From NCBI GenBank assembly GCA_002633005.1, contig NMRA01000182.1, positions 693,198 through 757,197 of the forward strand: a DNA stretch of 64,000 bases, in the 5' to 3' direction. Made by a program: the position numbers and the translations under genes. Within the stretch, counting starts at the first letter, position 1. Every line of letters starts with the position of its first letter. The notes below the pieces were generated by a model, which was given only the letters and a program-made list of their open reading frames with translations, had not been told where the DNA came from and did no database searches. Positions 4,558 to 57,150 of the stretch are shown here, piece by piece. This DNA is from Phoronis australis (taxonomy: Eukaryota; Animalia; Phoronida).

Positions 4558-4596
4558 ATTGACGTGTTCTTCACAGTTTTTTACAAGTGATACATA

Positions 4597-11201: not shown

Positions 11202-11356
11202 TTAAATTTCTCCTCTGCCAGTTCACGTCTTTTCTTAGTGGTACTAACTCTTTCAATCTCAGTGACAAAATGGCACATATTTTGTACATACAATCTTTCA
11301 ACTCCAAGCGCAGATGGGGTGGGGATTTGTTTATTTGTCCCTAATGGATTTATGGC

Positions 11357-18814: not shown

Positions 18815-19156
18815 CATGCATGCTGTAAGCATGTAACTGTGCCATGCATGCTGTAAGCATGTAACTGTGCCATGCATGCTGTAAGCATGTAACTGTGCCA
18901 TGCATGCTCTAAGCATGTAACTGTGCCATGCATGCTGTAAGCATGTAACTATGCCATGCATGCCGTAAGCATGTAACTGTGCCATGCATGCCGTAAGCAT
19001 GTAACTGTGCCATGCATGCCGTAAGCATGTACCTGTGCCATGCATGCCGTAAGCATGTACCTGTGCCATGCATGCTGTAAGCATGTAACTGTGCCATGCA
19101 TGCTGTAAGCATGTAACTGTGCCATGCATGCTGTAAGCATGTAACTGTGCCATGCA
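18815..19156. repeat. Minisatellite, 12 x 28 bp (CATGCATGCTGTAAGCATGTAACTGTGC)
   Basis: 342 bp = 12 units + 6 nt; few variants, no spacers. Confidence 0.95.
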
Positions 19157-21668: not shown

Positions 21669-21676
21669 TATAAATA
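21669..21676 (+). promoter_or_regulatory. Candidate TATA box of the protease-homologue gene
   Basis: TATAAATA 64 nt upstream of the proposed ATG. Confidence 0.5.
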
Positions 21677-21732: not shown

Positions 21733-21777
21733 ATGACTTTCGTTGTTCTTTGGATAATTTCGACCATCTCTGCAATG
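21733..21777 (+). CDS. Exon 1: signal peptide first half (MTFVVLWIISTISAM)
   Basis: ATG 64 nt after TATAAATA, hydrophobic run, donor ATG|GTAATT, phase 0. Confidence 0.65.
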
Positions 21778-24700
21778 GTAATTGAGGTGACCTGATTCAT
21801 TGATCTTAATTTTCAGCGAAACTACTCACAGAGCAGCGACAGAACAAAAGAAACGAAGAATTCACGTTGCCAAGTAAAACAAAATGTTATTTTTAAGTTA
21901 TGAGGGACTTCCTCAATTAGACTTCGCAAATTCTATGATTTCAGTAAATCTCATCACAAGTAAATGTTTTCTGAAGGCAGATATCCGTGCCACAGTTTAT
22001 GAAATATCTTTTAGGTTTTGCTGCATGCAAATTCAAATTTAAATGGAGCTTTACATAAGTGGGCTGTTTTCGAAGCAACATTAAAGGAGAATGACACCCG
22101 ATTTAGTCTTTTTTGCCGTCTTAATCGGTCTATATCCACATCGCTTCGCACACGGTCGATCTTACCTTGCCAAGAGGTGTCGCGTTAACCTGTGAGCAAG
22201 GTGAGAAACGACACTAGCGACGTCAGTGGTTCATATGCAGAGTGAATGCCACTATGTTGCGGTGCATCGTTCCCGCTTGTCCGAACTAAGCAGTTGCGAG
22301 GAAAGCGGGTATATCGTATTTTTTTACTTCCTCGAGAGTCCGAAATGCTTAGGAAGTGGCTCATGGTTGTGAAGAATGAAATGTACGCTGTAAAAAGCAA
22401 GTATGAGGCCGTGAAACATCTCCGTGCCTGTGGCCTGCAGACGTCGACAGTGCCTGACGAATGCCAGCTTACCAAATAACTCCATACGTTCCGTTGCCTG
22501 AGCTTGTTCACGGCGCCTCTCCAATATTTCTTCATCACTGTATTCCTGTTCGGGACAGATGAGCTCTAGCTCGTCCTAAGTCGGGATTGCGAGTTGCCAT
22601 GTTGGCGTTTATTACTGAGCGTTCTGTTTCAAAATGAATTATTCTCACCCTAACCAATACTTACATAAAACTGAAACAAAGCCCGTCTCATTAGATGCAG
22701 TTAAAATGCCTTTGGAGTGTTCGTAAGTGCAAATGATTTGAGAAGCCCGCAATGAATAAATCACTGCGTTACCGGCTTTAGGTGCAATAAAACTAATTGA
22801 CGGGACACCGAGGCCGTGTGAGCTCATGCTAATTTAGTGTTTGCTGGCAGAAACTGTTGTGAAACAACTCGATTTCCATCCCACGGCCAGGTGTTAGGGG
22901 AATCTATATTTACATTTACATTACTCAAATAATGATTGTCAATGTACAACTTCTGCCCTGACGGTGCTGTGGCCAAAGCGGAACCTGAATTCGCGCGGCC
23001 CCCGACGAGTAAGTAGATTTGCAGTTTCGTGGATAATTCACCAACTTAATCGCGTGCACATTACTTTGGCTCACTATATTATAGTATTTTCTTGACTGGA
23101 AGTTTAGTTTCCACTGAACTTTGGCTGGTTTATGTTCGTGATGTCTGACCAGTTTCCGAGCCACTGGCCGGGATAACTTACGAGTCAATCCGGCCGGTCG
23201 CGACGGGCCTGATCGGGCTCCGAGCCACTGGCCAGGATAACAAACGTTTTGTGTTTAGAACTCAAAAAATCTTAAGTCTGAACAACACAGATCTAGGTTC
23301 TCCTGTCTGTATCTCACGGAAAATACTTCGAAATTATCTCCGAACAGACCCCAAACTCCTGCTACGGACCTTATTGGCCGGCCGATCTTTGTAGGCTACG
23401 ATGTGTCCAAATACCAATAAATCCTTCAGAGCGAAATAAAACAACACGTTTTTATTAGAACTCGGTGTATTTTAAAGGGTTTTACATCGAAGTTTGATGA
23501 TTTATTGGTGTTAAACGATGACTTCAAGCGATAAGCTGACACCAGTAACCCGTGCTGTGAACTGCTGAACAGATTGCGAGTGAAACCAATGACGTCATTG
23601 GATAATTTCAACATCTCCTTCCACCGTCAGGTGTCAGGTAACACAACCGTACGTGTCGTTATGGAGTAGAACTACTCGATCTAAATTGATACAAATTAGT
23701 TTGTTTTGTGGGTGGCATGCTCCTTTAAATGGTTGATGGTTTTACTCAAATTGTTACTTTTTTATAGTGCTCAAATGGTATATCTAAATGTTTCATTTAA
23801 GTCCAATAAACCTTTGTTCTGAAATACGAAGGCACTGTATGGCTCAAAAATTGGCAACAATCTACAGCTATTCTCTCCCATAGTTTCTCAATGCCTTTAA
23901 AAGTGCACTTCTCAAATCACTCCATACCTTGATGGAGAGCGGTTGCCAATAGGTGGCGTGCAGACAAGACTTTTGTGACTAGCTCCATTAGCTTATTCAT
24001 GACATTGCTAAGTGATACAACATGATAATACAATAACTCCATTCTTAGGCTGATTTGTATCACTAACACCTTGTCTTTCAAATTATTTTAACCATAGCTG
24101 GATTTAGGGAGTTGGGCGACAACTTGTCATTTTTAAGGATTTGTGCGGACACTTTTCATTCGAAAAATTGTTGTCGCTCTGTGCCAACGTGTCTTAGGTC
24201 CGCCAGTTCCGACGGTGGTCTGCTGCTTTTTGTGACAAAAGGTGTGACCAGTTTGTTACATTTTGAGGGCCTAATTCCTAGTCTTCATTTTATTCCGTTT
24301 GTGGAACTAAATACCCCTTTAAATGAGGTACATGTATACACGTGTGCACACTAGAAAAATTGACGTTGTATGTTTCATCAATTTGTTTTCTTCAGGCATT
24401 GATAGGTTGCCATGGACAAACAATTGACCAGGAGATGCGGAAGGGCAAGGGCGCACGTAAGTTTCACTGTGATACAAGTAAAGTAATTGAGTTTATAAGT
24501 TGAAGCGTCAATTCCTTATCGCTTCCCTTTTAACATTTGAAATCAAAAACATGCCGAACTGAGGGCATCAAGGGGACATCGGAATAGGAAGTCCTCCAAC
24601 TTGGTCATGAAAAATAACATTTCTAAAGCAAAAGTCCGCACCCGTTGCACAGTGTAGTGTTGTTTATGAGTTTGTATGCCCTATGAACGAATGTTTTCGT

Positions 24701-27700
24701 TCAAACGTCAAACAATGTTACATTGGTCAAACGGTTTGCAGTCTTTCCCGTCGGTTATCCCTGCTTTTTCAAAATGGAGCCATTCAAGATCATTTTCTGC
24801 AATGCCACGCACGTAAAATCACCCGTCAAGAAATTGCGGAAAACACGTCAATTTGCTACGTGGAGCAAGATGTGCTGCGTTTGAAAGTATTAGAGTCCCT
24901 TTTAATTGCTTTTGAGAAGCCTGTTTTGAATGAGCAGCAAACAGGGTCGCGCCGCACGTTACACTTGTTTGCGTGACTTTCCTGTTACCCCAATTCATTA
25001 GTCATTCTTTGCAGTATTTCACACCCGCCGTGTCTCACTGTGTGTTTCGTCAGCTTATACTCTGTGGTTGCATTGTGTCATTTTATCTTCACTTGAGAAT
25101 GAAACAAGTATGTTCCGAAATATCGTGTGTCTTTTAATTATGTCGCTAGGTCAGTTACTGTATCTGTGTTCAGTTGAGAGTAGACTTTTGTTCCGAAGGT
25201 ACGAACGTAACGGAATAAAGACTGTGAACAATGAAAAGTGTCGTGCATTTAACAAATTCCGTATAAGGATTGGGTATCTAACATTGCACAAACATGAAAT
25301 GTTTCACAGTATAAATTGTGGGTGGATTTCCAACACTGTTTTGGAGGAGGGCTACGAAACCAGGTCGAGCAAAAGATAACGCGGAAACGAGCTTGATCAC
25401 AAGTGTCCATTTATAAAGAAGTCAAAAGCAGAACGAGAAGGCAAAGATGAAGAAAATTCCTGGCGAAAAGAGTGCAAAAAGTATATAAAGACAGATTTAG
25501 CACGAGAATACAGTGCAATAAAAGAAATATCGTCATCGATGCTTTGAAAACAATAGGGAAGTCAGACACCTGCAAGTTTAATTGGATAGCATCCTCCGGT
25601 GATGAGGTACTCGAACGACATTACAAAATTTTGGTGGGTCGGATACACACTTTTCCAGTAAAATTGAGATTCATGAGGGTTCAAGGATATCGGAATGAAA
25701 TCTGGTGAAGACACATTTGAATCGAAAATGAACTTTGCCGTGCCAAACGTTAAGCAAATGCCTACGTCAAAAGTGGCTAAGTCTATAACTGCTCGCTCCC
25801 AAAGCCAGTGCGTGTCAGTTGAGCTTAAACGGCAAGAAGATAAATGTTTGAAAAACTAAAACTGGTGGAGACATTGACCTGTTTGGCTACGAAGAACAAC
25901 CGAATTTGAAAGACGAACAACAAAGACTGAACAGGAAACTGAAAGAGTAGAGGAACTGAGAAATTTGTTACAACTGCAGTCTATTAGGGACAAGTATTTT
26001 AACAAATACCCACCCTGTCTACGCTTGCAGTTGAAAGAATGTATACACAAAATATGTGGCATTTTGCCACTGAGATTGAAAGAGTAAGTCCCACTAAGGA
26101 GGGACGTGAACTGGCATAATTAAGAAATTGAGAAGAAGATGAGCTCTCCTATACATGTCAAATATGGACATAGGTGTAATGAGTCTTTCTTGCGCTGATG
26201 TATGTAAATTTTAGATATTTTCTCTTGTTTGGAGTCGTTGCAACAGTCGGTAAACTGTGAAGATTAGTGCAGGGCAATTTACGTTGTTCACGTCGAAGAA
26301 ACCAACAAATCCCAGTTATTTCTGGGAGGTATAGTCTGTGCAGTAAGTCGGACAGCAAGTTTTTGGCCGGAAATCCGATTGCAGCCATTTGACATTTTTT
26401 TACCAAGATACTAGTTTATATGTATAGGAATGACTTATTTATTGATGCATAATTAGACGACATCAATAAGTTGAAAATACCACTGGCTCAATGCCAAAGT
26501 GTACAGTAGTTGCTCATGACGAGACCGGACATTCACGCGAAACTCTAGTATGACGAGTCCGTACAGATATTTTGAGCATAGGTGTCATAAAATACCACAT
26601 AACGTTAACTGCAATTTACAAATGTCAACTATACTTCTCATCCGGGTTGTCTATGGTTACATGGTGGTAATTGTTCAGTGATTTAGTAAGCTTATTGTCC
26701 GATAGATTTTGCTACGGCTCCTAGTCAATTAATAGAAGTATAGACTGTTCGCACGTCTGTTTATAGACATTACTGCACTCACTAAGTAACACTCGATCAC
26801 GTAACAGCGTTGCCGAACGTCCTGTAGATTTCGTCTTCAACCACACTTCAGTCGCCACTTTCGGACACTGTGTGTTATTTTCACTTTTGAACCGTTCATT
26901 TGCGCTCAAACGTTAATCCAATATGACGACCCTCGGGGTCTGAAGATGGCGACCAACCTGTTCCAGGCATTAAACCGCTCGCACTTCTCACCCCGCTTAC
27001 GGACAATTCGTCAGAACAGTGGCAGACGTTTATGCAGAAATAGGGCTTCTATAGTACCATCACCAGGTAAGCTGACCAGTCCCATGAATACCAAGTGGTC
27101 TTGTTTTTGCATACGCTTGGTGACGCTGCGTTGAAAACTTACAATAACTTCCACTTCGACAGGGCTGAATGTGATCGTATCCTGTCACAGATAATTGACA
27201 AGTTTGACCAGTATGCTGTTGGTACATTCAATGAGACCTATGAACGTTTTCTATTTAACTCGCGCACTCAAAACCCTGATGAGACATTCGAATCCTTTCA
27301 CTCTGCTATTCGTGGGCTCAGCAAAACCTGCAAGTCCTGCAACTCTTTCGACACTTGTGTGAACTCCATCATACGTGACCGTATTGTGTTGGGTGCTCGT
27401 GATGACACCACACAGCTGTCGCTACTCAAGGAACCAGCCCTCACACTTGACAAGTGCGTTGACATTTGTAAAACGTACGAACATGCTGCTGCACAGGACA
27501 AAGTACTGAACTCGGCACAATCCGTTAACAAGGTGGACGCTATGCCCCTCTCTAAGCCACCCCACGGGTACGACTGTGCTTCTATTGCGGAACAAAGCAT
27601 GCCATGAGAAAAGAAACGTGATCGGCCTGGGAGAAAACCTGTTCCAACTGTCAGCAACCGAACCACTTTGCGTCCAACTGCCCTCCTATTCCTGCAACCA

Positions 27701-30700
27701 GACCTTCCCAACGCGTGACCCCTAGCTTCACACCTGCTCGCAAAGACGGACAACGTCGTGTGCATGGTGTCCACGATAACGACTATTTGGTAGACCCCGA
27801 CCCAGATGACAGAACCACATGGCTTAACAGAGTTCACACAAATGAACAAAGCTCATTCATGTTCAAATGAGAATCATCGAGGAGGACTGTGATGACATAT
27901 TCGAAGCTGATAATGGTGCAACCACGAGCACTATTCTGGTGAAATACGTAACCAAGGTACAAATAGAAACTACAGGAAAGGCACTTAGCATGTGGAACAA
28001 AGACACCCACCCACCTCTTGGTTCTTTTAGACTCACATTGCACAACCCTAAGACTCTGTATCGTTCTTGGTGGTACAAGAAGACTTCGCCCCCTTACTGT
28101 CACTCAGTGCATCTCTCCAAATGGCTCTGATCTCGGTGAATAAGGAAAACTTTGAGCGTCGTAGCCAAGTGTCGTTCACTGATGAGTTATCCGATGTATT
28201 TGACGAGAGTCTTGGCACTTTGACTGGAGAGGTCCACCTCAAAGTGGATCCTTAGATTTTCCCCGTGATCAGGCCTGCTCGCAAAGAATCACTATCATGC
28301 AGGCCCAAACTCAAAGCTGAACTAGACGTCTGGCAAAACTTAATGTCATCTCGCCAGTAAACGAACCTACTCCCTGAGTAGCCAAATGGCTGTAGCTGAG
28401 AAGAAAAACGGTCAACTGCGTATATGTCTCGACCCCCGTAAAATCAACCAAGCACTGAAGCGTGAACGTTATACTCTACCTGTGCTTGAAGACCACATGC
28501 ACTTGCTATCACAGGCAACAGTTTTCACTAAAGTTGATCTCTCGTGTGCCTATTGACTTGTACAACTCGACGAACCCTCTCGTAAACTTACCACACTACA
28601 ATCCTGCTTTGGCGATCGATACCAGTGGAATCGTCTACCATTTGGGTTATCGGTATGCGCTGAGATCTTCGTCAAGAAGACGGCAGAAGCCCTCACCGGC
28701 CTCGCAGATGTACTGTGCATTGCAGATGATGCTGTAATCTATGCAGCCGAACATGATGCCAACCTGCTATGCTGCTGGAAGAAGAGCCTTAAACTCAAGA
28801 AGCAGAAGTTTTCTCACACGATCCCCGAAAAATCTTTCATGGGTCATACTTTTTCTGCTCTTGGTATGCGTCCTGATTCTGAAATAGTCAGAGCACTGGC
28901 TGCAATGGCATCCCCTCAAAACGTTAAAGAACACCGACGCTTCATGGGTATGATCAACTACTTTGCCAAGTACCTACCCAACCTAGCAGCTGTAATTGCC
29001 CCCCTCACGAAACCTCCTTAAGAAAGATGTACCCTGGACATGTTCGGACGTGCAAGAATCAGCTACACAGACAATCAGGAAACTGATTACAGAAGCTCCA
29101 GTTCTCTGCTTATACGATATCAACAAAGACTTAACTTTTAAAAACGACGCAAGCGGCTTTGGGGTCGGTTCATGTCTGATTGCTTTCTCCAGCTGTTCGC
29201 TCACTGATGCAGAGACCCGATATGCTCAAATTGAGAAAGTTCTGCTGGCTGTGGTCATTGGATTGGAGAAATTCCACTGCTACACCTATGGTTGCACCCT
29301 ACAGGTCATCAATGATTACAAGCCGCTAGTTGCTATCAAATTTAAGCCACTTTATCGCGCACCAAGACATCTCGAATCACTTCTCGAACTCGCTCAGAAA
29401 TATGACTTCGAGCTTGTACACCGTCCAGGTAAATCTATACCTGTGGCTGATGCTCTATCCCGAGCCCCAATGACTGGCAAAGCAACAGAGGAACTCACAA
29501 GTGGGAATGCTGTTTCGTTGCTACCTATCACAGAGTCATTTTTGGCACAAATACGCCATGATTTTGATCACGACAACGTATTACCTGTGCTCAAATCGAC
29601 TATTTTATAAGGGTGGCCGACTCACCGACATGACACCCCAGAAATCATCCGACCACACTTGGACTACCATGACGAACTAGCTCTACAAGACGGCATAATC
29701 CTCCGAGGTGACACTGTTGTCATTCTCAGATCACTCCGAGCTGACATCAAGTGGAAAGTCCATACTGGCCACTAGGGTATTAACTCTCGTCTTCGTCGTC
29801 TTCGACAACTCGTATACTGGCCCGGCATGTCCAAGGAAATACATGTACGCCAGTATGTTGAATCCTGCAGTGTTTGTGCCACGTATGCAACCACCAGAGA
29901 CACTCAACACGCATGACGTTCCAGAACGTCCTTAGCAGATAGTAGGCACAAATCTTTTTGCCCTATGCAATCGTTCTTACCTTATCACTGTTGACTACTA
30001 CAATCATTTTTGAGATTGATTACTTACCTGACACTCTCTCGGAGAAGGTCGTTAGCAAGATGAAGTATCATTTTGCCAGACACTGCATACCGGATACTCT
30101 TGTCAGCGACGGTGGTCCGCAGTACTTTTCGCACAAATTCAAACGTTTTGCCTCCTATTGGGCATTCAATCACATAGTCACCACCCCTTGTAACAGCAAA
30201 GCAAATGGCGCTGCTGAACTCGATGTTAAAACTGCCAAGCGCTTGCTACGCCGCTGTGAGGCAGCACATGAAGATCCATACCTGGGTTTACTGAATATTT
30301 GCATAACACCGAATGAGGCCTTTTCAAACAGTCCAGTTGAACGCTTATTCGGGAGGAAAACCAAGAGTCTAGTTCCGACCACGTCTAAGATGCTGCACCC
30401 TCCTAACCAAAACTCCAGTGAACCTGAAATTATGAAAGACAAGTCATCTACTGCTGACCGCCTTAATCCACACCGAAGAGAATTACCCTCCATCCAGGTG
30501 ACTGTACGTATGCAACCCATTCAGCCAGGTCATTTGAGATGGCAAGCCGCAACTTTAACCAACCCCTTTTCACCTAGGTTGACTCGACTCATTTAACTTG
30601 ACTAACAAATTTGAACTTTTCATTGACAATTAAGTTAGTCATGCACAACGTTTTGTGTTGATATTGCAGCTGAATAATGAAATAACTAACACGCTTAAGG

Positions 30701-33700
30701 CATCTATAGGTTATGTTGACCAACAACATGTTTTCATCAATCGCCGTTAGGATTTATTCCTCAAGAGCTTACAAACACCAATGTCATATCGAAAACAACA
30801 AAGCGAGCCCCACCATTCTATCGGCTGTCAAATGAGGACACGGTAAAACAATATGTTTTAACATATCTAATTAAAATTAGATAATATCGAGTTACGAGTA
30901 TTCATTGGCCGATACGTACTGCGCAGACTATTGACAACCAATCGCAACATTAGTCACCCTCCCCTGTGAGTAGCGTGAAGTCGTCACATGTAGCTGCTCG
31001 TTTCAGTGTTGTTTTCGATATAATAAAGACAGGCAAGGCGTTGCATTTACTATGGTTGGAACAACTCGGTATTTGAGTAAGCTCTCTTTCTACTTTCTCG
31101 CGGGTACAGAAATGGCATAAGTTTAATCTAGAAACTTGGGTGGTGGTGTTCTTGGCACACCGACGGTGGGTACGTTCACACGTCACATTCATTCCGTGGA
31201 GCTAAGAAATATTATTTTTTCTTCTATTTTCTTGTTTTTGAGAAATTGAATTCGCATATGTGATATATAGTGCTATAAAGGATTGGTTTAGTGATGCTGA
31301 CAATGTAGTCACTTATTAAAACAGATAAATTATATTGTTTTTAATACTTTAAAGTCATAGTTTTATGGCACTGCGCCATCGACGAATAAGACCCCCGTTT
31401 GTAAGAGAAAATTAGGCGTAAAAACCAAACCAAATTACTTGAAAATTCCTGACAAGGTTTCTGAGTGATGCTGGCAAGAATTTATTTAAAAAGGCTTAAT
31501 TGAAATCAATTACGGGGTATTTTTGCTGTCAATGTTAGCTTGCTAAAATGAAAACTTGGTTTTAAAGGGGTTCTAGGGTATAAAAACAACATCTACATGT
31601 AACTATAGTGTATGTTTATAATCCCAGTTTGCCTATCTAAACCCAGAAACTGTTTAGTAATGGTTTCACGAAATCACTGGATATGACTTGGATTTCAGAA
31701 ACTCAGTCAGACTTAATCAAGAAAAACGGCGTGAGCTACTTGCTCAAGATTGGAGAATATACGAGCAAAAGACTAGTTGTTAAAACACGCCCATAGTTGA
31801 AACGCTTACTTTTATGAAATTGGATGAATTGATTTTACATAACTTATCCACACATTCTAGATTACTTACACTTTGGTGAACCCCACACTTAAGCACGAAA
31901 TCGTAGGAGTATTGCAAAAACTTATCAAAATGAGTCAAGGAAATCACTGAGGCCACACACGTCATCATAGCTTTTCCGTTGATTTAATATATGCGTCAGA
32001 ATAGAGGTGTTCGAGGTGCGCAAAGTATGCTTCGACGAACGTTGTTCGATCTTGCAAGTTTCCCTGGACCGTCGGTTCTTACAGTCAGTTTCAAATAAGT
32101 GTGCCTTGATAGCAATGGTAAAAATAAATAATAACATTTCTAAAACTTCATTGAAATGAACACTGCCGCAATTACAATGTCAAAATTTTGCCTGCAATCA
32201 AGGTAGCCGACTTATGACGTGACTGCTTTTACTCTCACTCGCAAGCCCTTTTCCACTAACGTCTACTACACCTCTTCGTATAGACCCAATTCACGCGGCG
32301 GACATTAAAATCCAAAGCGAGGCTCACTGCGATAAACAAAGCGGAAATTTACATTGCGTGAATTAAAGTCATATGATCCGTTTGTAGACGTTTTAAAAAC
32401 ATCGTGAATCTGCATAAAAACCATTGAAACATACTCTCTGACACTTAATTAGAACTTTTCGTAAGTATGGGGTCGATCTGCTGCATGTACATATTTTTTC
32501 TTTTATTTTTTATTTTCTTAAAATATGCGTGATCAAAACAAACGAATGTTGCCCATAATGCTGTGCGGTTTGACGTTTTGGCAACTCGAGACAAATAGTC
32601 AGCTGTTTCCGGTACTGCTTCGAAGAAGAGAAGTTCGCCTTACCAGGTAATTTATTCGTTTCTTGAACATTTTGATGACGATATTGCTCCCTGTATGAGC
32701 TGAACAGTCTAACTATTACTCTTAGAATTAGATGAAACCATTACCTGTGGGAAAATTATGTACTGAATTCGATAGTAATCGTTATGATCGAGTCGAGTGT
32801 GCAGTTGTACCCTAGCCAGCCGGCTAGCGGTATCAAAATACAGCTAGGCACCACTGTGTATTTTTCTTCAATAGAGCCCGAAATTCACCCAGCCAGGGTA
32901 GTATATTTAAATTACAGATTTGTACCAAGGCTCGATGGTCGTGAGTTGAATTTCTACCTGCTGGCAGTTTTCAGACTTTGGACTTGAATTGCAAAACTAT
33001 TCGTGTTTTTTCATTGCCATAAGAAAATCATCGTCTATCACCAGGTACTCTATACTCTACTTGTATATTGTACTAGCAGGGGCACATTGGAGGATTTAAG
33101 GGGGGGCAAGAGGGCCATGGCCCCCCTAAAATTCTCCCAGATACCATTTGGCAGTTCGGGGTGCAAATTGCTGACTAGCACATGCCCCTTGAGCAAACCC
33201 TGTTTACCGTTTATGTTTTTTTAGTAATAAGATCCACAAACCCAAAAATTCGACACCCCCGTATTCCTACATCAGGCTGCGCTCGAGCATGTCGCAAAAT
33301 TCTGGTTATTCCTGTGCCCTGGCCCCCCTAACTTAAACCACTGGATTCGCCCCTGGGGCAGATCCAGGATTTTGAGTTAGGGGAACAGGGCAGAGTATTG
33401 GCCAGGGTTTAGTTCACCAAACATTTGCACCCCCGAACTGCCAAATGGGAACTGTGAGAATTTTAGGGAGGCCATAGCCCCCCTCTAAATCCACCACTGA
33501 CTAGTCAGCTAGCTAGTCCACTTGAACACAACCCACTGGATCAGCGATGAATCCTCGGATTAAATGCAAGCAAACTTGGGAAGTGCCGGTAGGCTGAAGC
33601 TTGTTGCGAGAATAGTGAGATCATAGAAAACCATGGTTGGGAATGGGATGCAACAAATTTGATGCCTGTTATTCAGTGAAGAAATCTGGTTCTCAAATTG

Positions 33701-36700
33701 CAGGACACTGGGAGTGGTCACATCATTACAGAACAATATACTATGTATGGAACCTCCTCAAAGGCAAAAGGGTATAAGCCAAAGGCAGATCAGTAGTAGC
33801 ATTAATAAAGGTCGAGCAGGTTACATCTTGTATTATCAGTGGTAGGGTCTCGATTGGGTAAATAAAGGGCTAGGGACAGGGGAAGGTTAATGGCAGTGCT
33901 TGCTTTTAATTAATATACTCTTTCTTGGACTTTGAGCGTGCAACTAGGCCCTTGCAGACTCACTTTATCAAGAACACAATCCATCAATTTACATGGCAGA
34001 GGGCCTAAAGAGTGCTTCGAAAATCATCTATCCTCCTTGAATGTCAGCTGTTACAGACTTCTAGCATCGGTATTGGCAAGTTAACACAGGAAATAAACTT
34101 AATTAGTCTGGAAACAGGTAGAACACTGAAGTTTCAATTTCAGGTACACTCATACTTTTGCGAAAATGCGTATCCTATGCAATGTATTGATCAATGTTAT
34201 CTATGTACTGCTCAGAATGGCATTTTATGTGATTACCATGTTTTTAAAGGTTCACCGTAATGTGCGTCACCAGTTCACCAACAATAACAATACTCAAGCA
34301 ACAGAGTCAACATGATTGGAGTACTGAGCCATGTGCAGAGGAATAGGCTTAGGTGGCAATTGATGTTCGGTCTCTTCACATGCAGGTATGCTTGGAACTC
34401 TCGTTTCTTAACGCAATAGAACCGATTCTACATAACTTTTGTGTTCAGTCATTCTTATTGTTTTCTTTCATCAGTAATCACACAAGCTTTATAGGTAACA
34501 AAACTGAAGAAAACCTGTAAGAAAATACATTTGCTATGTATCACTAAAATATGCCACATAAACTGCTGAAATTTATACTGTCTTAAAACTTCATTAATTA
34601 AAACTTCATTAATAATGGACCACTGGCTTTTTGAAGAACAACAACCAGTTTGTAGCTATGAAAACATCATTCTCCTTCATGTTGAGGTCATGTTTAAACT
34701 ACAACTCAAAATTAATGTGGTTTGATTTTTTCAGTCTCACATAAGTATATCTGTGGATGAGGGCATTGTATTCAACTTGCTGTGTCCATACTCACTGGGG
34801 TGGTGGGTACCACCAGCTGTGATTGTCATCAGGGTGTATCTGTGGCAGATGCTGAGGAGTGTCCACTACACTGAAAAGATCTATAAGAAGCAGCCTGTCA
34901 CCTGCATTTTGCTTATGCCTGTGAGCATTTCTTATAAAGACAGTTTTGGAAATCCAGTTAAGCACCCTCATTATGCACACATGTGACTCTGTGAAAGAAA
35001 ACACTGCTGACATGACACTTGTAATAACCTTTTACCATTTTCCTTCCAAGGCTCTGGCTACAGAGATTTGGTCTTGCACTCAACATCAATGTTTCAGACA
35101 AATACCCAAAACTCAATTTATGCTCATAATTGTTACTTATTGAGAAAATGTGAACAAATTATTTCAAGGCTATTAGGTATTAATGATACCTGGACTAAAC
35201 CTTTACTTGGCAATTGTGAAGTGAAAACATTATATGCATTTATACTACAGTTGTAAGCGAGTTGAAAATTTTCACATGCAAATTAGTTACATTACAAATG
35301 TTATTTGCTCAACTGGGCATCCTCCAAAGCACTGATACATTAGAATAAAAACTTCACACTAAAGTACGGTTTACACAAACCTAATATAAATAACTCAAAT
35401 GAAACACTGCTTCGTGCATTTCAATGTGCATTTCCATGTTTTAATATGGAACAGCAGTGTACGAAGTGCACTCATCCTTCAAAATATCTCTAATATTTGT
35501 CTGGTAAGCTGCTTGGCTGTATTTATAAGTTTAGGTGTAAAAGTCTAGGTCCAAGCAGTTTTTTTAGTAAAAAAGCTCGCTACAGGGGGTTAGTTTGAAA
35601 ACGCAGATGTAAACGCTTTGATCTAGGTATTTGTGTAAAAAAATCAGTGTGAGGGGTTGCTGGTGCACTGCACGGTGGTAGGGGTAATGCGTTGTCGGAA
35701 TCACGGACACTCCGAAATATTGGGAATCCCATTTTGGACACCCTATTTTCGAAATCCTGGGTGAATCCCTGAATAGAAATTGAACAGGCTTTAAACAAGG
35801 CATGTTTAAATACTGTAAACGAAACAGTGATATCTTTGGTTAGGATTGTGAGTTGTGAGTTGAATAAAATGTGAAATGTCACTCCATGAGATATTAAGGA
35901 AATGAATGAAACAATACCTCAAGGTTTCTTCAGGTGATGACCAGTCTGGGACTCTTGCAAAGAAGTTTGTAGAGGGCGTTGTCTAAACCACTCATTCTGA
36001 AAGTACAGATGATGAAGGAGGGTTTAAATACAATTTGACTCACTTTACCAGGAGCAATCACAAGATTTAAGAATGTACTTTCAGTCAATTTGTCACACCT
36101 TTATGCTTAAAACAACTTTGATTTAATTACCAGAAGGCAAAATTTGTAGCTGAGACAGCATTATTCTAAACTGACAGCGACTTAAGAGACTTATAATTGA
36201 TGAAAATTCCGGCTTACGTTAAAGCCCATAGCCTAATCTCTGTATTCGATACACAACTCGAAAATTTAGCAATTCCATGACATGAGAAAACATAAGATTT
36301 GTACTCCAATCACGTGATTTGACTGGCTAATTTTTTGAGGTTGTGAGTTCAAGTAATGTACCTGGACCATGCAGATTGCAATTAACCATTTTCTCCTAAC
36401 CTGCACAGTCTAAGATGGAAATACAGAGAAAAGTGGCCATCAATAACAGAAGTTTAGCACACCTATTCTTTCTTTTAAAACTTAATGGAATAAGAAAGAT
36501 CAACTTACGGTTACACGGGCCCCTGTAGGTGGTCAGTATTCTCCTAACTGGAAAAAATAAAACAAAACTAATAAGACATTCTCAAGTATAGCCATCTTGA
36601 CCAAGACTTATCCCCCCCCCCACTGTACTCAGTACGACCAACACTGATATGAGCTTTCTAAGGCGTGGCCAGGTGAAGTCCCTAACACATCCTACAAACA

Positions 36701-39700: not shown

Positions 39701-42700
39701 ATTATGATTCGAAAAAAGTTTTTACACGGACATATTTTCCTTCGTCGCGGCGTATGGAAAGGACCCAACGTTTCCGAATTCCAACGTCCTAACCTTGGGG
39801 GTTGTAAAGCAGACAGTTGAGTGTCCGTATTTTTTCTAGCTGTTCGAGGAACCCGGAGTCGTAGCGAGCTTCGTTTTGGAACGCGCTTCCTGTCGGCGTG
39901 AATAGGGTCTATAGGCAGCGCCGGTCAGTAGGAATGGTTACTTTCGACTTTGCGTCGAAGTATAAATCGCAAGTTTTCTCCACAGAGGCGAAACGTCCGC
40001 TCGTCTTTATAGTAATAACAACAAAGCTGCTCCAATTTCAAGAAATAGCATAGTCAGTTCTTGGAAAGCTCATTGAACGCCAAACTATTTTCCGCACTTT
40101 TTAGTTTCAACGATCACTGCCTCTACTACGGCGCAACACTCCTAGTTCCGCTGGCTAATTCGAAGGGACACCCCCAACACCCATTTATAAAATCAAAATG
40201 GTTCGGTGTTACCCTGACCCAATATTCTCCTGTCTTGATGGTTCGATGATCTTTAGGTCCGATATCCCACGTCCTTAGTCAACTATTGCGACTGAATGGG
40301 TAAGCAGGAACAGGTTGTTAACAAAAACCACCTCCAATTTTCCACTACCCTAGTCGTTAGTCAACCACGGCATAGATTTTTGAGGTTCAATTGGAAACAA
40401 GACTGTTCCGACTGAAGTAGGCTTATTGGAAATAAAGTTATTCAGGGTGGCTGTAAGGCCAGTTGGTAAGAATAGTCGCACACACAGTCACGTCTATAAG
40501 CAAAGTTTGCCGTACAGAATCGAATTAAACAAATGCGGAATTAGTATGCGCTCGGTTCCCATTCAAAGTCTGTCTAATTAGATACAACTTACCTTGGAGC
40601 GTTCGTGAATGCAAATGTTTTGAGAAGCCAGCAATGAATAAAACACTGCGTTACCGGCTTTCAATTAGTTTATTGCATTTAAAGCCGGTAACGCAGTGTT
40701 TTATTCATTGCTGGCTTCTCAAAACATTTGCATTCACGAACGCTCCAAGGTAAGTTGTATCTAATTAGACAGACTTTGCTTCAGTTTTGTATCAGCATTG
40801 ATTAAGGTGAGAATAATTCATTTTGAGAGCTCAATAATAAACGTCATCGTGGCAACTCGCATTCCCGATTTAGATGCGTGCTCATCCGACTTCAAGGGTC
40901 GATCGTTATTTTTCACAACTATCAGCTCGAGCCGGAATGCACTCATCAAAAAATACTAGAGAGGCTCCGTGAAGGTGCACAGACAACGGGACACACGAAT
41001 AGCTCCGAAAATCGTTTGAATGACTTGTCGTGGTGTCAGCGAGCTGACTGCACGATAATAGAAACGACCGACGCCACGAGAGTTCTCAACCAGTGAACGC
41101 CTTCTTGCAGAAGAGCAGGTGTGTCTCAGGGACCATCCTGATTTTTGCGCCGCATCTTAACAGAGGTGTGCTTACGTGTTTTTTTAGGCCGCTGAGGAAA
41201 AGAAGAGGCAAAGACATTCTACACCCATAGGACTAAACAGAAGCCTGCCTTGAATTAATTGTACGCTTTCGTGGTCAACTACAATTCTCCATAATCAAAA
41301 ACTAATCAAAAACCGGTCCGTCTCCTGCCTATCCAACGCAAGGACGCTAGGCACGACATCTGAATTCAGCCTCAGTCTCTTTTTGTGCCCGGGCATGAGC
41401 TGTTAGGTAAGCCGGCATTTGGTAGTCAGTGAAATCAGTGTCGGCGAAAACTGACCACTGACAGACGCGAAGAAGTTTAACGGGGTCGTATAATACTTGG
41501 TATTAACGGCGTAGTTTTCCTTCTTCACTATAGCGAGCCACTTCCGAAGCATTATGGGCTGTCGAGGAAATCGAAAAATGATATACCCGCATTCCTCACA
41601 GCTTCACAGTTCGCATATGCAAGAACGATACACCACACCATAGCAGCACTCACTCTGAAGAAGAACCACTGACGCCGCTGCGTCGTTCCTCACCTTCCTT
41701 ATAGGTTAGTGCGACACCTCTCGGCGAGGTAAGATCGATTGTATACGACGTGATGTGGATATAGACCGATTGAGAGAGTAAAAAGACTAATTAAATCGGG
41801 TGGCATTCTCCTTTAAGTTTATAATCCGCTGGCTCTATACGCACGCACTTCGTCGATGTTTTTTTAATGCTGAAGCATCGAGACGCGGACCAAAATCAAT
41901 CCTAAATTCAGGATTAAAACATCTGGATTCTACAAAGGTCTGGGCCACGGTGGAGTGCAGATGAGCTCTGAAAACTTGCTCGCCACTTGCACAATCAACC
42001 AGTGATCTTCTACTCGTCCAGCACCGCTTTTAGTCCCATTGGCGAGTGGGCGAGTTGCTAAGTATATACCTGTCTTTATCACGCTCATTAGGTACAATTT
42101 GTCATTTTTTCACACGCACGCAAAAGTGTTACGACGCGACTGGTTAATAACACCGAGTACCAATTCTTTGGTATTACATCCTAACCGAATCGCAAGGAGG
42201 TGTAAAGTAGAACTTCATTCGCCTTACATTTCCTCGTCGGCAAACACTAATTCTAACAACCAAAAATGTAAGGGTGGCAAAATTATGATTGACAAATTTG
42301 GTGTCGCAACTGCACCTACTCCCAGTGGGGAGGACACATAAACAAGTTCTTAAGCGGATCATCTTCGGCGAATTCCATACCCATATTAGAATTTCACGCT
42401 GTCGCCAATGAACTCGTTACCTGCGTTATTGCGCCAATAACTTTATCATACCACTATCTGTACTTCATGTGCATTTGGTGAATTCGCTGCCAGGCTTTCA
42501 GGATTTGCACGACTTTGTCTCAGTACTCCCTAGCTGAAAATTGCAGTGGATTTCTGACTTGAACATACGTGGGTAAGATTTATTGTACAATATATTCGCT
42601 TTATTTGTGAAATGGCGTAGAGAAGAATTTACACCAAATTCCTTTCTATTACGCAGATTGCCTGGACGAAATCATGAACTGTGAGTTATTGGCTAGATTA

Positions 42701-54700: not shown

Positions 54701-57150
54701 AATTGCTGGTGTTTCTCAGTATAGGCTGTGCTAATTAATAAATAATTGCAGATGGTCTGTACCTGACGTGTGCAAGCCGCGCATGAGGGCCTATTACACT
54801 CTTATCCTGAAACCATTTTATGCTTTAAAACCGAGCTGAGGAGCTAGAAACCTAACTCAAGTGTTTAGAAGTGAGACCCTGTGGGACTCGAACCCACGAC
54901 CTCGAGTAAAGAAAGTGGACACATTTCACACTAGGCCACACTACCTCCTGAATCTGTGCCAATTGGTTCAGTATTAGTAATGCCGCCCCTTTAGTAACTT
55001 GAAACATGAAGGGTACATGCTCAGTTTCATGTGCTCGTGTAAACACTCTATTTCAGCATCCAAATTACGACGGAAATGGCAATGGTTTCCCTAATGACAT
55101 AGCCTTGTTGAAATTTACCGAACCAGTCACTTTCACCAACGAGATCATTCCCGCATGTCTACCTCCCGCGGACATGATTATTGCCGGAAACGACAGCTGT
55201 TGGATTTCAGGATGGAGTAAAACCCAAGGTAGATTTACTACTCAGCGAATAAAAATGCTTACTTTACAGTACATGTTGTGTTTTGGTATACATGAATGTA
55301 CACGTTTGATTTTCAGGTATAAAACTTCAAGTTCTCATATCAGGCATGCGTTCAGTAGACGCTAGGACCTACGCTAGGACCTAGCCAAAAGGTAGTCAAG
55401 GTCACGTGCTCTTATTTAAAATACACTGAAATATCTCGCGTAATCTCGCAAAGTCTTGCTTTTAAGCTAGGTCCTAGCGTTACTGAACGGGAGGCAGATT
55501 TTTCAATTTTAGAGATCATGAGTACGATAAGCCTACAACATGGCCGACAAGTACAATTGTATTTTGTCAAATTTCTTGACAAGAATAAAATTCAAGAAAA
55601 TTTTATCCCGTTGTTAGTGTGACTTGTATAGTGCAGATATCGCAATGTAACATTTAGGAAAGTTTATATTACTTGCAGCATGATAATTTTGTTAATTGTT
55701 TTGTACGAAATAATTGAAGAATTATCGTATACCTGTAAATGCATCATTTTGTATAGCGTAACTCCGACAGCATTCAATCCCTCTTTGTCATGTCGCCTCG
55801 TTTAAGGAGAAAAGAACAGGGCGAATAATTCATTATTATCTGCTGCGTATTCTTACTTGTATTTCAATTTATAGACCCAAACCAGAAGAGCGAAATTTTG
55901 AACGAGCTGAAGGTTGACGTACTAACCAATGACGTATGCTCTGACAAGTGGAATAGCAGTTATATCAACAGCGGCCATGTTTGCTTGAACAACGGTCTCT
56001 CGGGAGCCTGCAATGTAAGTATCTATGGGTTAGCAAAACTGATTCGATGCCTGAAACCAACTAAATTGTAAACAATGCAGCAAATTTTATAAAAACTCTT
56101 TCCAAGTACCATGGAACATATTTTCGGTGCCACATTTTAAAGTCATTGCAAGTTGTGTATAAACATCCTTTTATTTGGCCTTCGACTTTTATCATAAACT
56201 TTGGATGCTTAGAAGTAGACACATGTAGCATGAACTTACAAATAGCAAGTTGATCACGGAAAAATACGATAACTGGCCTGATCAATGAAATGGTTTGTTA
56301 ACTTATTAACATAACAGCGTTAACTGTATTCCTACATGTGAAACGGAATGCGCACAAGCCATCCTAAGACCTTGGCATCGAAGTAGTTATTGCATTAATT
56401 TGCACACAAACAAATTGAAAAAACTCAGATGGTTTATAATATAAAGCACAGACACATCAGGCTGTGTTAAGCATAAATTGAATAAAGGCACATCGTGACT
56501 CTAATGGTTGGCAAAAACAAGCCTCTTTCGTGGTGTAATTCTTCCTGGAACCGAATTACCAGGAGAAACAGCGATCTTAGTTTTTTTTTAATCTAGTAAC
56601 CAATCCTAAATTGAATTTAATTTAATTGTTCATTTACATACAAGATGTAGCAGTCCCTGAAGAAACTGTTTTCAGCATCGTGGCACAGAGCAGGAAACCC
56701 CTAGATGTGAGGAGTTCCTTAACGCTGGGTTAACATGGAGTTTAGGACTCAAGAGAATAGGGCCGTTCAGTAAAGACGCTGTTAACAGCTAACCCAAGGT
56801 ATACTGAAGTTGTTTAGAAACACACCTAAATATTACGTCTTGTGTTTTGGCGGAAAATAGTTTGAAGGCGCCGCCAAAAGAAAAAGCAGTGTTTCAATGG
56901 CGAAAGGTGAAGTTTTGGCTGACCGTACCAATCGTAGATGTGGTTCTTTTGACTAATGTGAACACAACTTTTTTCTCTTTAGGGAGACAATGGTGGCCCA
57001 CTTTCATGCAAAGGTGACGACGGGAAATGGTACGTGAACGGCGCTGCCTCGTGGGGCCCATTAGGATGTAAGACGGAAGGTTACCCCAGTGTCTATTCAC
57101 GAGTAACCTTCTTCCTGGATTGGATCAAGGACACATTGACTAACCATTAA
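21733..57150 (+). CDS. Secreted multidomain serine-protease homologue (signal peptide-ShKT-CUB-6Cys module-trypsin domain, catalytically inactive); 11 coding exons, 467 aa
   Basis: Hand-spliced join(21733-21777,24396-24456,42657-42788,44084-44262,45439-45574,46647-46745,47109-47274,48748-48853,55057-55228,55875-56014,56983-57150) = 1404 nt, open frame, all GT-AG, intron phases 0,1,1,0,1,1,2,0,1,0. Linking exons 1-2 to exon 3 across an 18 kb intron is inferred from phase match and signal-peptide logic. Confidence 0.85.
22085..23724 (-). mobile_element. Kolobok-type element, copy 3 (in intron 1)
   Basis: TTAA on both sides, same TIRs and internal sequence. Confidence 0.85.
24396..24456 (+). 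CDS. Exon 2: end of signal peptide and short pro-region (ALIGCHG-QTIDQEMRKGKGA)
   Basis: Strong acceptor tttgttttcttcag, donor GTAAGT; C-H-G resembles a signal peptidase -3/-1 site; phase 0 to 1. Confidence 0.7.
24621..25225 (+). mobile_element. Penelope-like element 3' fragment with GIY-YIG endonuclease
   Basis: VVYEFVCP...C...YIGQT...L..R...AI.DH...H...E.LLI...P.LN; AATAAA near end. Confidence 0.85.
25089..25128 (+). ncRNA. Minimal type I hammerhead ribozyme motif (U3-A8 variant) in Penelope-like pLTR
   Basis: cac-TTGAGAA-tgaaac aagtat gttcc-GAAA-TA-TC-gtg: 3-bp stem I, core, stem II, palindromic ATAT stem III. Confidence 0.6.
25400..26670 (+). repeat. Unclassified coding-derived repeat family B (longest copy)
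   Basis: Homologous pieces at 12440-12850 (-), 11206-11350 (-), 7897-8440 (+), weaker at about 15340-15600. Confidence 0.7.
26923..30575 (+). mobile_element. Degenerate Gypsy (Mag-like) LTR-retrotransposon internal region: gag-PR-RT-RH-INT
   Basis: gag NETYERFLF..R.Q...E, two Cys/His knuckles (27577-27680), DNGA protease site, LRICLDP, CIADD, DAS..G, YAQIEK, ADALSR, SDGGPQ, ANGAAE; many stops and frameshifts; no LTR pair found. Confidence 0.92.
33077..33499. mobile_element. Inverted dimer of hAT5-like MITE
   Basis: Two opposed copies fused at CCCCTGGGG (about 33350-33358); TSD ACTAG flanks the whole unit. Confidence 0.7.
38726..38889. mobile_element. hAT5-like MITE (monomer of the 33 kb family)
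   Basis: CAGTGGCG...CCCCTCTG, TSD GAACA. Confidence 0.75.
39107..39411. mobile_element. hAT5-like MITE
   Basis: CAGTGGCTGATCTAGG...CCTAAATCCGCCTATG, imperfect TSD ATTTT/ATTGT. Confidence 0.55.
40040..40550. repeat. Unclassified ~500-bp repeat family C, copy 1
   Basis: Direct diverged match to 42933-43460. Confidence 0.8.
40564..41812 (+). mobile_element. Kolobok-type element, copy 4: 5'-truncated, diverged, retains more coding remnant
   Basis: Right TIR + TTAA at 41813-41816; - strand MVWCIV...GISFF/RFP...MLRKWLAIVKKENY...RVC (THAP, frameshifted); + strand YQLEPE...RLNDLSWC...CLRDHPDF (KolX/P2X7-ballast-like). Confidence 0.8.
42657..42788 (+). CDS. Exon 3: ShKT domain (CLDEIMNCELLARLGLCTAHKYEELMSKHCKNTCHLC)
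   Basis: Six-Cys ShKT pattern C-x-D...C...C...C-x-x-T-C-x-x-C; acceptor acgcag, donor GTGAGT; phase 1-1. Confidence 0.9.
42933..43460. repeat. Unclassified repeat family C, copy 2
   Basis: Direct diverged match to 40040-40550. Confidence 0.8.
44084..44262 (+). CDS. Exon 4: CUB domain N-half (CGGNFEGESGIIQSPNYPSNY...CEYDYLE)
   Basis: CUB motifs CGG, SPNYP, C-x-YDYL; splice sites cag/GTACGT. Confidence 0.95.
44406..44790. mobile_element. MITE with CATAGACTATAG-type TIRs
   Basis: Imperfect ~30-bp TIRs; the same end motif occurs at 1011-1042. Confidence 0.6.
45439..45574 (+). CDS. Exon 5: CUB domain C-half (IQDNGASKKLCG...MRFVTDSSVQQTGWKIEFE)
   Basis: CUB motifs LCG, F-x-TD-x-S, G-W/F; splice sites ttacag/GTGAGT. 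Confidence 0.95.
46168..46203 (+). CDS. Possible extra 36-nt Pro-rich linker exon (GAPVPNAVPPLK)
   Basis: Acceptor ttgttaatag, frame-preserving phase 1-1, but weak donor GTATAT directly abutting a MITE. Confidence 0.35.
46207..46574. mobile_element. MITE with long imperfect TIRs
   Basis: TATTAAATGCA..TTACATGCTTG mirrored at the right end; internal TATACACTGTAACACTCTTCAA also mirrored. Confidence 0.65.
46647..46745 (+). CDS. Exon 6: compact six-cysteine module (CKYTCVPEVFCTGQVVNEHCAAAGTVCC)
   Basis: C-x3-C-x5-C-x8-C-x6-CC; acceptor ttttccacag, donor GTAAGA; phase 1-1. Confidence 0.85.
47109..47274 (+). CDS. Exon 7: activation segment and trypsin-domain start (CGVRKESR-IVGG...WPWQVSL...HFCGATLI...TSARCV)
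   Basis: R-IVGG, WPWQVSL, HFCG; catalytic His position reads CGT (Arg) at 47261-47263. Confidence 0.95.
48748..48853 (+). CDS. Exon 8: trypsin domain (KVVLGEH...KIFM)
   Basis: V-x-LGEH motif; splice sites tttttag/GTAAGT. Confidence 0.92.
49107..54464. mobile_element. Helentron-associated (HINE-like) element with tandem array, split by the LINE
   Basis: Repeated TGCACCTAATGACC and GACCTTTG units on both sides of the LINE, AAG/AAT microsatellite 54367-54410, terminal hairpin CTCTGC..GCAGAG. Confidence 0.65.
50291..53912 (+). mobile_element. Degenerate L2/CR1-group LINE (APE endonuclease + RT) in intron 8
   Basis: DILCLNETWL, GGGVAIY, YRPPS, GDFN, PTR, NYRP.S.LP, QSGFRP, DLKKAFD, PQGSILGPLLF, YADDT; 3' stem-loop and (AATA)n tail. 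Confidence 0.95.
54740..54947 (-). mobile_element. tRNA-derived SINE
   Basis: A box TGGCCTAGTG and B box GGTTCGAGTCC in 54872-54947, no proper cloverleaf; 3' boundary approximate. Confidence 0.6.
55057..55228 (+). CDS. Exon 9: trypsin domain with Asp102 (HPNY...NDIALLK...PACLP...CWISGWS)
   Basis: NDIALLK and P-A-CLP motifs; tttcag/GTAGAT. Confidence 0.95.
55875..56014 (+). CDS. Exon 10: trypsin domain (ILNELKVDVLTNDVC...HVC...SGACN)
   Basis: Cys168/Cys182/Cys191 positions conserved; tttatag/GTAAGT. Confidence 0.92.
56983..57150 (+). CDS. Exon 11: trypsin domain C-terminus (GDNGGPLSC...SWG..GC...PSVYSRV..FLDWI), stop TAA
   Basis: GDSGGP motif reads GDNGGP (AAT at 56989-56991); long polypyrimidine acceptor. 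Confidence 0.95.
   Translation, partial: GDNGGPLSCKGDDGKWYVNGAASWGPLGCKTEGYPSVYSRVTFFLDWIKDTLTNH

What the first reader, a model, noticed from the sequence alone, without database searches (positions are those of the whole stretch)
21733..57150. Intact secreted pseudo-protease with unusual ShKT-CUB-6Cys-trypsin architecture
Seen: an open 11-exon frame with two catalytic residues lost (TAAHC->TSARC, GDSGGP->GDNGGP) while Asp102, the R-IVGG activation site, Asp194 and the structural cysteines are kept. Established: such S1A homologues act as cofactors, decoys or binding proteins (e.g. arthropod clip-domain SPHs such as PPAF-II and masquerade). Inference: a toxin-fold module, a CUB domain, a defensin/clip-like module and an activatable dead protease point to a secreted immune, mucus or venom scaffold. 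I do not recognise this combination but cannot confirm novelty. Both catalytic changes are single transitions (CAT->CGT, AGT->AAT), so recent decay is the alternative.
Basis: partly seen in the sequence, partly recalled or inferred. Interest (0 to 1): 0.85.

Follow-up and report, generated by a model that had tools for sequence, protein, structure and literature searches.

The report
Young catalytically dead protease duplicate
This is an intact gene for a predicted secreted chymotrypsin-like protein that has lost two of its three catalytic residues; a roughly 93% identical sister copy keeps the catalytic serine and is the one expressed in the RNA samples tested, so the window's copy is likely a young non-cutting offshoot of an ordinary invertebrate protease family, or else a decaying spare.

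Summary
An 11-exon, 467-aa open frame encodes a signal peptide, ShKT, CUB, a six-cysteine module and an S1A domain with His57Arg and Ser195Asn. Read-derived DNA contigs carry both codons, so this is not an assembly error.

The interpretation needs lowering. CUB-6Cys-chymotrypsin is an existing lophotrochozoan family: 17 of 269 fetched proteins have the module before an S1A domain, 4 with CUB, all with His and Ser motifs. Only the ShKT module was unseen in it (0 of 17).

The same genome holds a sister copy, 92.7% identical over 615 coding bases and at twice the DNA depth. It keeps Ser195 and supplies 195 of 195 reads at that codon in the expressing RNA run. Window-type RNA was seen only as about three reads over the CUB exons; ShKT splicing is unproven.

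The window copy lacks 6 of 45 family-invariant residues, 5 of them in the cleft, yet keeps its frame, splice sites and 26 cysteines. Fully neutral decay gives that pattern at most 0.2% of the time in simulation.

Verdict: likely a young serine-protease homologue (0.5), otherwise a decaying duplicate (0.35). No evidence for a venom or clip-cascade role.

The parts
21669..21676 (+). TATA-like box (TATAAATA) 57 nt upstream of the start codon
   Evidence: sequence; function inferred
21733..21777 (+). exon 1: start codon and hydrophobic core of the predicted signal peptide
   Evidence: 9-aa hydropathy up to 2.7; no RNA laid here
24396..24456 (+). exon 2: end of predicted signal peptide and short basic linker (phase 0 to 1)
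   Evidence: best-scoring phase 0-to-1 exon candidate between exon 1 and the ShKT exon; no RNA laid here
42657..42788 (+). exon 3: ShKT domain, 6 Cys, symmetric phase 1-1 exon that can be skipped in frame
   Evidence: Pfam ShK E 1.1e-8; nearest PDB match is the MMP-23 ShKT domain, E 0.019; RNA depth in its bin 0 in X5 and X7, 0.06 in X6
44084..45574 (+). exons 4 (44084-44262) and 5 (45439-45574): CUB domain, 4 Cys
   Evidence: Pfam CUB; junction in 95 X5 reads (sister type) and 3 X6 reads
46647..46745 (+). exon 6: six-cysteine module C-x3-C-x5-C-x8-C-x6-CC, predicted beta-defensin-like
   Evidence: same module in 17 relatives; model pLDDT 84; 7 of 9 structural matches are defensins or defensin-like, Z 2.0-3.0
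47109..47274 (+). exon 7: linker Cys219, R226-IVGG activation site, TSARC motif
   Evidence: Pfam Trypsin E 3.5e-11
47261..47263 (+). codon at catalytic His57 reads CGT (Arg)
   Evidence: X1 contig with 0 differences; state in the sister not shown in the tables
48748..48853 (+). exon 8: protease domain
55057..55228 (+). exon 9: Asp102 (55096-55098) kept; position 142 is Ser (55216-55218) where the sister and 21 of 21 relatives have Gly
   Evidence: (loose end at 55873)
55875..56014 (+). exon 10: protease domain up to Cys191; Gly189
   Evidence: junctions 55228>55875 (180 X5 reads) and 56014>56983 (153-154 X5 reads), sister type
56989..56991 (+). codon at catalytic Ser195 reads AAT (Asn); the expressed sister reads AGT (Ser)
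   Evidence: G at 56990 in X5 195 of 195, X6 1 of 1, X8 contig; X1 holds both types at depths 22.3 and 41.3
56983..57150 (+). exon 11: GDNGGP, substrate-binding strand changed at positions 213, 217, 218 and 221, stop codon

Best explanation
The gene is a close duplicate (about 93% identical) of an expressed chymotrypsin-like protease gene that keeps Ser195, and it likely persists as a young non-catalytic serine-protease homologue whose predicted product would be secreted and would bind partners rather than cut them. Shown: the intact frame, Arg57 and Asn195, the sister with Ser195, and losses concentrated in the cleft while all 26 cysteines are kept. Inferred: the precursor is secreted and can still be cut at R226-I227; the protease domain stays disulfide-tethered (Cys219 to Cys342, the 1-122 pair) to the CUB and defensin-like modules; and, because the substrate-binding strand has also changed (213 Thr/Ala, 217 Arg/Pro, 218 Ser/Leu), binding would run mainly through CUB, the 6-Cys module and ShKT. 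The most likely role is a passive scaffold or competitor in the same secretion as the active sister. Its main tissue or stage of expression is not among the samples tested.
For: Frame, 20 splice dinucleotides and 26 Cys are intact. The window lacks 6 of 45 columns invariant in 21 active relatives; the active members lack 0-2 each in a leave-one-out count. 5 of 15 cleft columns are lost against 1 of 30 others, Fisher p 0.012; without His57 and Ser195, 3 of 13 against 1 of 30, p 0.075 (the cleft list is recalled textbook numbering). In neutral simulations the joint chance of at least 4 invariant hits, no Cys hit and an intact frame peaks at 0.0017 over 6 divergence levels. Window versus sister dN/dS is 0.51 over 615 nt, binomial p 0.036 against neutrality. 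In the protease part the sister residue is the commoner family residue at 10 of 16 differing positions and the window residue at 3, with 3 ties; in CUB it is 5 against 4 of 13, with 4 ties. Trace window-type transcripts exist: X6 has 3 sense reads across the CUB junction, of which only 1 carries sister letters on either side, and X7 has 1 sense read without sister letters at 12 listed sites. Dead S1A homologues are common in invertebrates (101 SPHs beside 120 SPs in one moth; PMC4676143, abstract).
Against: No window-type read was seen at either catalytic codon: 0 of 195 in X5 and 0 of 1 in X6 at 56990, and the His57 row was not shown. X5, where the sister is strongly expressed, has no window-type read at the listed CUB sites (for example 0 of 106 at 44100). 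The copy sits at half the sister's DNA depth, as a hemizygous dispensable gene would. The pairwise dN/dS mixes both lineages and rests on the listed rows only (CUB list possibly incomplete; 8 of 9 differences in exon 10). The gene was picked because it looked like this, which inflates the simulation argument. Only 3 of the 6 invariant losses (142, 195, 213) are shown to differ from the sister. No binding partner or function was tested.
Confidence: 0.5

Rival explanations
1. A redundant duplicate under relaxed selection, on its way to becoming a pseudogene: barely transcribed, possibly carried on one haplotype only, and not yet hit by a stop or frameshift.
For: The active sister supplies all informative reads in X5. 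Window-type RNA is about 3 reads among the 11-13 million records read per run. DNA depth is 22 against 41-48. Amino-acid change is lopsided to the window copy. The introns carry many transposon pieces. Hemizygous dispensable genes from young families are widespread in a mussel (PMC7653742, abstract).
Against: Enough neutral time to hit 4-6 invariant residues should usually break the frame, a splice site or a cysteine; the joint chance is at most 0.0017. Losses cluster in the cleft. A TATA-like box, signal peptide and activation site are intact. The RNA donors are other samples (S2-S5) and some may lack the copy.
Confidence: 0.35
2. The window shows one highly diverged, loss-of-function haplotype of the same locus as the sister (an allele rather than a separate gene), with a further near-identical active copy elsewhere.
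For: Exon structure is the same and flanking intron sequence still aligns at about 85-90% in X1 contigs. Marine invertebrates can be very heterozygous (general knowledge).
Against: Depth is about 1:2, not 1:1 (22 against 41-48). dS of 0.12 with many intron indels is high for alleles.
Confidence: 0.1
3. One reading: a venom, mucus or immune-cascade cofactor that works like arthropod clip-domain SPHs, with the ShKT module acting as a toxin.
For: The ShKT domain is real and has a Lys-Tyr pair at residues 57-58. ShKT can accompany trypsin-like domains (PMC6409789, passage). CUB-trypsin clusters automatically named venom serine protease exist in arthropods (for the relative P0163).
Against: Tissue labels are not available, so no gland expression is shown. 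The ShKT exon had no X5 reads and is skippable in frame. Its best solved matches are accessory domains of metalloproteases. Accessory ShKT domains in secreted proteins can be non-toxic (PMC7333891, passages). The nearest relatives carry chymotrypsin, elastase, hepsin or ovochymase-like names.
Confidence: 0.05

Closest known systems
Lingula anatina XP_013387554.1 (P0118), Potamilus P0158, Watersipora P0159 and unnamed P0163: CUB(1-2)-6Cys-chymotrypsin-like proteases
   Same: Same domain order from CUB onward, 42-44% identity over about 400 aa; same 6-Cys module; same GACNGD-type S1 region
   Different: All four keep TAAHC and GDSGGP; none has ShKT; three have two CUB domains
Lingula anatina 'chymotrypsinogen A' (P0196): signal-6Cys-S1A
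   Same: Closest protease domain, 57-58% identity and nearest by tree path
   Different: Catalytic motifs intact; no CUB or ShKT; the tree placement is not strongly supported (85/81)
Expressed sister copy in the same organism (runs X1, X5, X6, X8)
   Same: 92.7% identical over 615 coding nt; shares the 3 junctions seen
   Different: Ser195, Gly142 and Thr213 kept; strongly expressed in X5; twice the DNA depth; its His57 and ShKT exon were not seen
Arthropod serine protease homologues, including clip-domain SPHs (PPAF-II and masquerade names recalled)
   Same: Predicted secreted S1A domain without a full triad, activation site kept, small disulfide module in front
   Different: The module is 32 aa with no Pfam match and models as beta-defensin-like; relatives are lophotrochozoan; this copy is very young and no cascade role is shown
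Accessory ShKT domains of MMP-23 (PDB 2k72) and a zinc metalloproteinase (PDB 2mcr)
   Same: Six-Cys ShKT spacing within a larger protease-family protein
   Different: Here the domain is N-terminal on an S1A scaffold, and its inclusion in mRNA is unproven

Membership tests
Peptidase S1A (chymotrypsin fold) | Trypsin-domain profile match, IVGG start, conserved disulfide cysteines | tested here: met
   Pfam PF00089 above cut-off on 3 of 5 protease exons; 10 Cys and 39 of 45 invariant columns kept
Active S1A protease | His57-Asp102-Ser195 triad | tested here: not met
   Arg57, Asp102, Asn195; both codons confirmed in X1 contigs
Trypsin-specificity enzymes | Asp189 at the base of the S1 pocket | tested here: not met
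   Gly189, Gly216, Ser226 by alignment to chymotrypsinogen through P0196; chymotrypsin/elastase-like
Serine protease homologue (functional pseudoenzyme) | Triad lost with open frame and fold cysteines kept | tested here: met
Serine protease homologue (functional pseudoenzyme) | Expressed as a full-length spliced mRNA and protein | tested here: inconclusive
   about 3 window-type reads over CUB in X6 and X7; none at the Ser195 codon; 18-19% of each raw run read
Serine protease homologue (functional pseudoenzyme) | Purifying selection on the dead copy itself | tested here: inconclusive
   pairwise dN/dS 0.51, not lineage-specific; neutral simulation unlikely but ascertainment-biased
Serine protease homologue (functional pseudoenzyme) | A non-catalytic function (cofactor, decoy or binding) | not testable with these tools
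   needs bench assays
Clip-domain SPH | N-terminal clip domain | tested here: inconclusive
   no Pfam family at E<=1 for the 32-aa exon; the model matches defensins weakly, Z 2.0-3.0; shorter than clip domains as recalled
Lophotrochozoan (CUB)-6Cys-chymotrypsin family | C-C-C-C-CC module directly before the S1A domain, with optional CUB domains | tested here: met
   17 of 269 fetched proteins, 4 with CUB; module alignment
ShK-type channel toxins | Small free peptide | tested here: not met
   the domain is one exon of a 467-aa frame
ShK-type channel toxins | Lys-Tyr functional dyad in the equivalent position | tested here: inconclusive
   KY at residues 57-58; no free ShK toxin appeared among the 2 PDB matches, so the position could not be aligned

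The most novel reading that the evidence does not exclude
A pseudoenzyme caught at birth: within about 12% synonymous divergence from an active sister, the copy has selectively dismantled its cleft (57, 142, 195, 213, 217-218), kept every disulfide, carries an ShKT exon not seen elsewhere in the family, segregates as a presence/absence gene, and acts as a secreted binding protein in a tissue not yet sampled.
Probability: 0.25. Interest if true: 0.6.

Novelty: new variant of a known kind. Interest (0 to 1): 0.33.

Why it matters
If the copy is functional, it and its 93%-identical active sister form a natural before-and-after pair for how serine-protease homologues arise, in a lophotrochozoan family where all 17 relatives seen keep the catalytic motifs. 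The search also shows a recurrent beta-defensin-like module without a Pfam family in front of these proteases. If the copy is decaying, it is an ordinary dying duplicate.

Tried and rejected
Assembly error at the two codons: rejected, X1 contigs match the window with 0 differences. A ten-exon model with exon 1 joined straight to ShKT: rejected, the phases do not fit; the exon at 24396-24456 resolves it. A second copy inside the window: tblastn found none. No whole genome is held, so the sister's locus could not be read.

Exon queries in the 5.8-billion-protein set found no close relative (2 distant fish proteins among 4 candidates; none of 8); this is weak evidence. The ESM Atlas gave no usable hit for the 6-Cys exon and Foldseek gave no PDB match; neither shows a new fold. 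Clip domains were not among the 9 VIA-align rows, which does not exclude them. No RNA holder was listed for the stretch by index; the RNA runs came by species label.

Alignment A1 misplaced the CUB and 6-Cys exons and was not used further. The tree left out P0116 and placed the window only in an unstarred clade. Paper searches with no hit. One search listed 17 of 18 papers holding ShKT, CUB, trypsin and serine protease; I read passages of 4 and none described this architecture; the other 13 and all supplements were not read. Earlier scan notes held nothing. No complex was predicted, because no specific partner is claimed.
Full report
1. Observation. The window is animal DNA, 40.5% GC and rich in repeats. 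On the + strand I recovered eleven exons whose phases chain into a 1404-nt frame of 467 codons, with no internal stop and GT-AG at all ten introns. Exon 1 ends in phase 0 and the ShKT exon starts in phase 1, so a linking exon is required. The best-scoring candidate, 24396-24456, completes a signal-peptide-like N-terminus. Pfam confirms ShK, CUB and Trypsin on the exons scanned singly (6 of 9 with a match above cut-off) and gives nothing for the six-cysteine exon. Position 57 is CGT (Arg) and position 195 is AAT (Asn). Read-derived contigs of DNA run X1 cover both codons with no difference, so they are real, though X1 may be the window's source.

2. The sister copy. RNA run X5 gives sense-strand spliced reads over 44262>45439 (95 reads), 55228>55875 (180) and 56014>56983 (153). 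These reads differ from the window at fixed sites, for example 106 of 106 at 44100, and the same letters lie in X1 DNA contigs at depth 41-48, beside window-type contigs at depth 20-28. At 56990 the reads have G, giving Ser195: X5 195 of 195, X6 1 of 1, and the one X8 contig. The sister also has Gly142 and Thr213. Over the 615 coding bases I could compare there are 45 differences (92.7% identity; dS 0.124, dN 0.064, ratio 0.51). The CUB list may be incomplete and 8 of 9 exon-10 differences were listed. The sister's residue 57 was not in the rows shown; His is inferred.

3. Expression of the window copy. It was seen only in traces. In X6, 3 sense reads cross the CUB junction and only 1 carries sister letters on either side. 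In X7, one sense read lacks sister letters at 12 listed sites. None was seen at the Ser195 codon. Only 18-19% of each raw run was read, tissues are not given, and the RNA donors differ from the DNA sample. The bin holding the ShKT exon has depth 0 in X5 and X7 and 0.06 in X6. So the sister's transcript either lacks that exon or is under 90% alike there. X1 shows about 143 bases of surplus depth in that bin and a contig break at the exon's acceptor, a hint only that the sister's DNA has it. The exon is phase 1-1 and can be skipped in frame. The 1:2 depth ratio fits a copy on one haplotype, or two identical sisters; I could not calibrate genome-wide depth.

4. The family. A search of 1.84 billion representatives with exon 9 (best 150 of 1444) and one with the Lingula protein P0118 (best 120 of 860) left 269 proteins in hand. 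Eighteen match a six-cysteine pattern; I dropped one (P0013), whose match is not in front of a protease domain. The other 17 carry it before a chymotrypsin-like domain, and all 17 have TAAHC and GDSGGP. Named ones come from Lingula, Owenia, Watersipora and several bivalves. Four also have CUB: P0118, P0158, P0159 and P0163, the last with a single CUB as in the window (44% identity over 406 aa). None of the 17 has an ShK pattern; 2 of the 269 do, both Acropora proteins with another layout. These proteins were selected by protease and CUB likeness, so this is not an exhaustive architecture search. The nearest protease domain is Lingula P0196 (57-58%), which points to a lophotrochozoan host. The S1 pocket (Gly189, Gly216, Ser226) is chymotrypsin/elastase-like. 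A model of the six-cysteine exon (pLDDT 84, 11 sequences) matches defensins or defensin-like peptides in 7 of 9 rows, at Z 2.0-3.0, which is weak. The ShKT domain's only PDB matches, also weak, are accessory domains of metalloproteases (E 0.019 and 0.48).

5. Decay or new role. Against 21 active relatives, 45 columns are invariant. The window lacks 6 of them (55, 57, 108, 142, 195, 213 in chymotrypsin numbering), whereas active members lack 0-2 each. Five of the six are cleft positions (5 of 15 against 1 of 30; p 0.012, or p 0.075 once His57 and Ser195 are set aside). In the protease part the sister has the commoner family residue at 10 of 16 differences and the window at 3; in CUB the split is 5 to 4 of 13. 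All 26 mature cysteines, the frame and the splice sites survive. Under fully neutral change the joint chance of at least four invariant hits with all that intact never exceeded 0.0017 at six divergence levels (4000 runs each, assumed indel rate). This favours selection that keeps the fold but not catalysis. Against it stand the near-silence of the copy, its half depth, the small counts, and the fact that the gene was chosen for this look. I put 0.5 on a young functional homologue, 0.35 on a decaying duplicate, 0.1 on a diverged allele and 0.05 on a venom or clip-type cofactor.

6. Mechanism. Shown: no catalytic serine or histidine, activation site and Asp194 kept, substrate-binding strand altered at 213, 217, 218 and 221. 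Inferred from S1A knowledge: secretion, cleavage at R226-I227, a Cys219-Cys342 tether, and no proteolysis. Inferred more weakly: binding through CUB, the defensin-like module and ShKT, as a scaffold or competitor alongside the active sister.

7. Literature seen. PMC6409789, passages: ShKT occurs with trypsin-like and other accessory domains. PMC7333891, passages: a limpet mucus protein with CUB and ShKT is judged unlikely to block channels. PMC5778601 and PMC4848628, passages: no such architecture in what I read. PMC4676143, abstract: 120 SPs and 101 SPHs in one moth. PMC7653742, abstract: hemizygous dispensable genes in a mussel. Searches found no paper. Supplements were not read and may list such architectures. 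The names PPAF-II and masquerade, clip-domain length and the cleft numbering are recalled.

8. Verdict. The feature is real. It is a new variant of a known kind: a dead, ShKT-bearing member of an existing active family, with function unproven. Interest 0.33.

Noticed in passing
window 6212-7896, 9510-11207, 22080-23730 (partial copy near 40560-41820): Three copies of a 1.7-kb element, 89-94% alike, in both orientations; one lies in intron 1. One short ORF from it had no Pfam match.
   Followed up: partly
window 27300-30000 (+): Broken LTR-retrotransposon-like remnant in the 18.2-kb intron 2: zinc knuckle at 27622-27867 and RT-RNaseH at 28996-29607.
   Followed up: partly
window 51200-53600 (+): Broken LINE-like element (weak endonuclease match and RT pieces) in intron 8.
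   Followed up: partly
window 40564-40778: A 215-bp near-perfect palindrome (95%); smaller ones at 4587-4767, 5480-5523 and 46174-46607.
   Followed up: no
window 18803-19156: Tandem array of a 28-bp unit, 12.7 copies, 96% alike.
   Followed up: no
window 55340-55500: Short, very high-copy element with inverted ends in intron 9, present in many RNA reads of all three raw runs.
   Followed up: no
P0083, P0118, P0136, P0158, P0159, P0163, P0196, P0198, P0213, P0214, P0216, P0221, P0236, P0244, P0260, P0269, P0020: A beta-defensin-like six-cysteine module recurs in front of lophotrochozoan chymotrypsin-like proteases; of the 4 scanned here, only P0083 touched Defensin_beta, at E 0.051.
   Followed up: partly
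P0013, residue 1051: An unrelated multidomain protease has the same TSARC change in one of its three protease domains.
   Followed up: no
window 63237-63458 (-): An acidic 74-aa open stretch near the window end with no Pfam match; it may be an exon of a neighbouring gene.
   Followed up: partly
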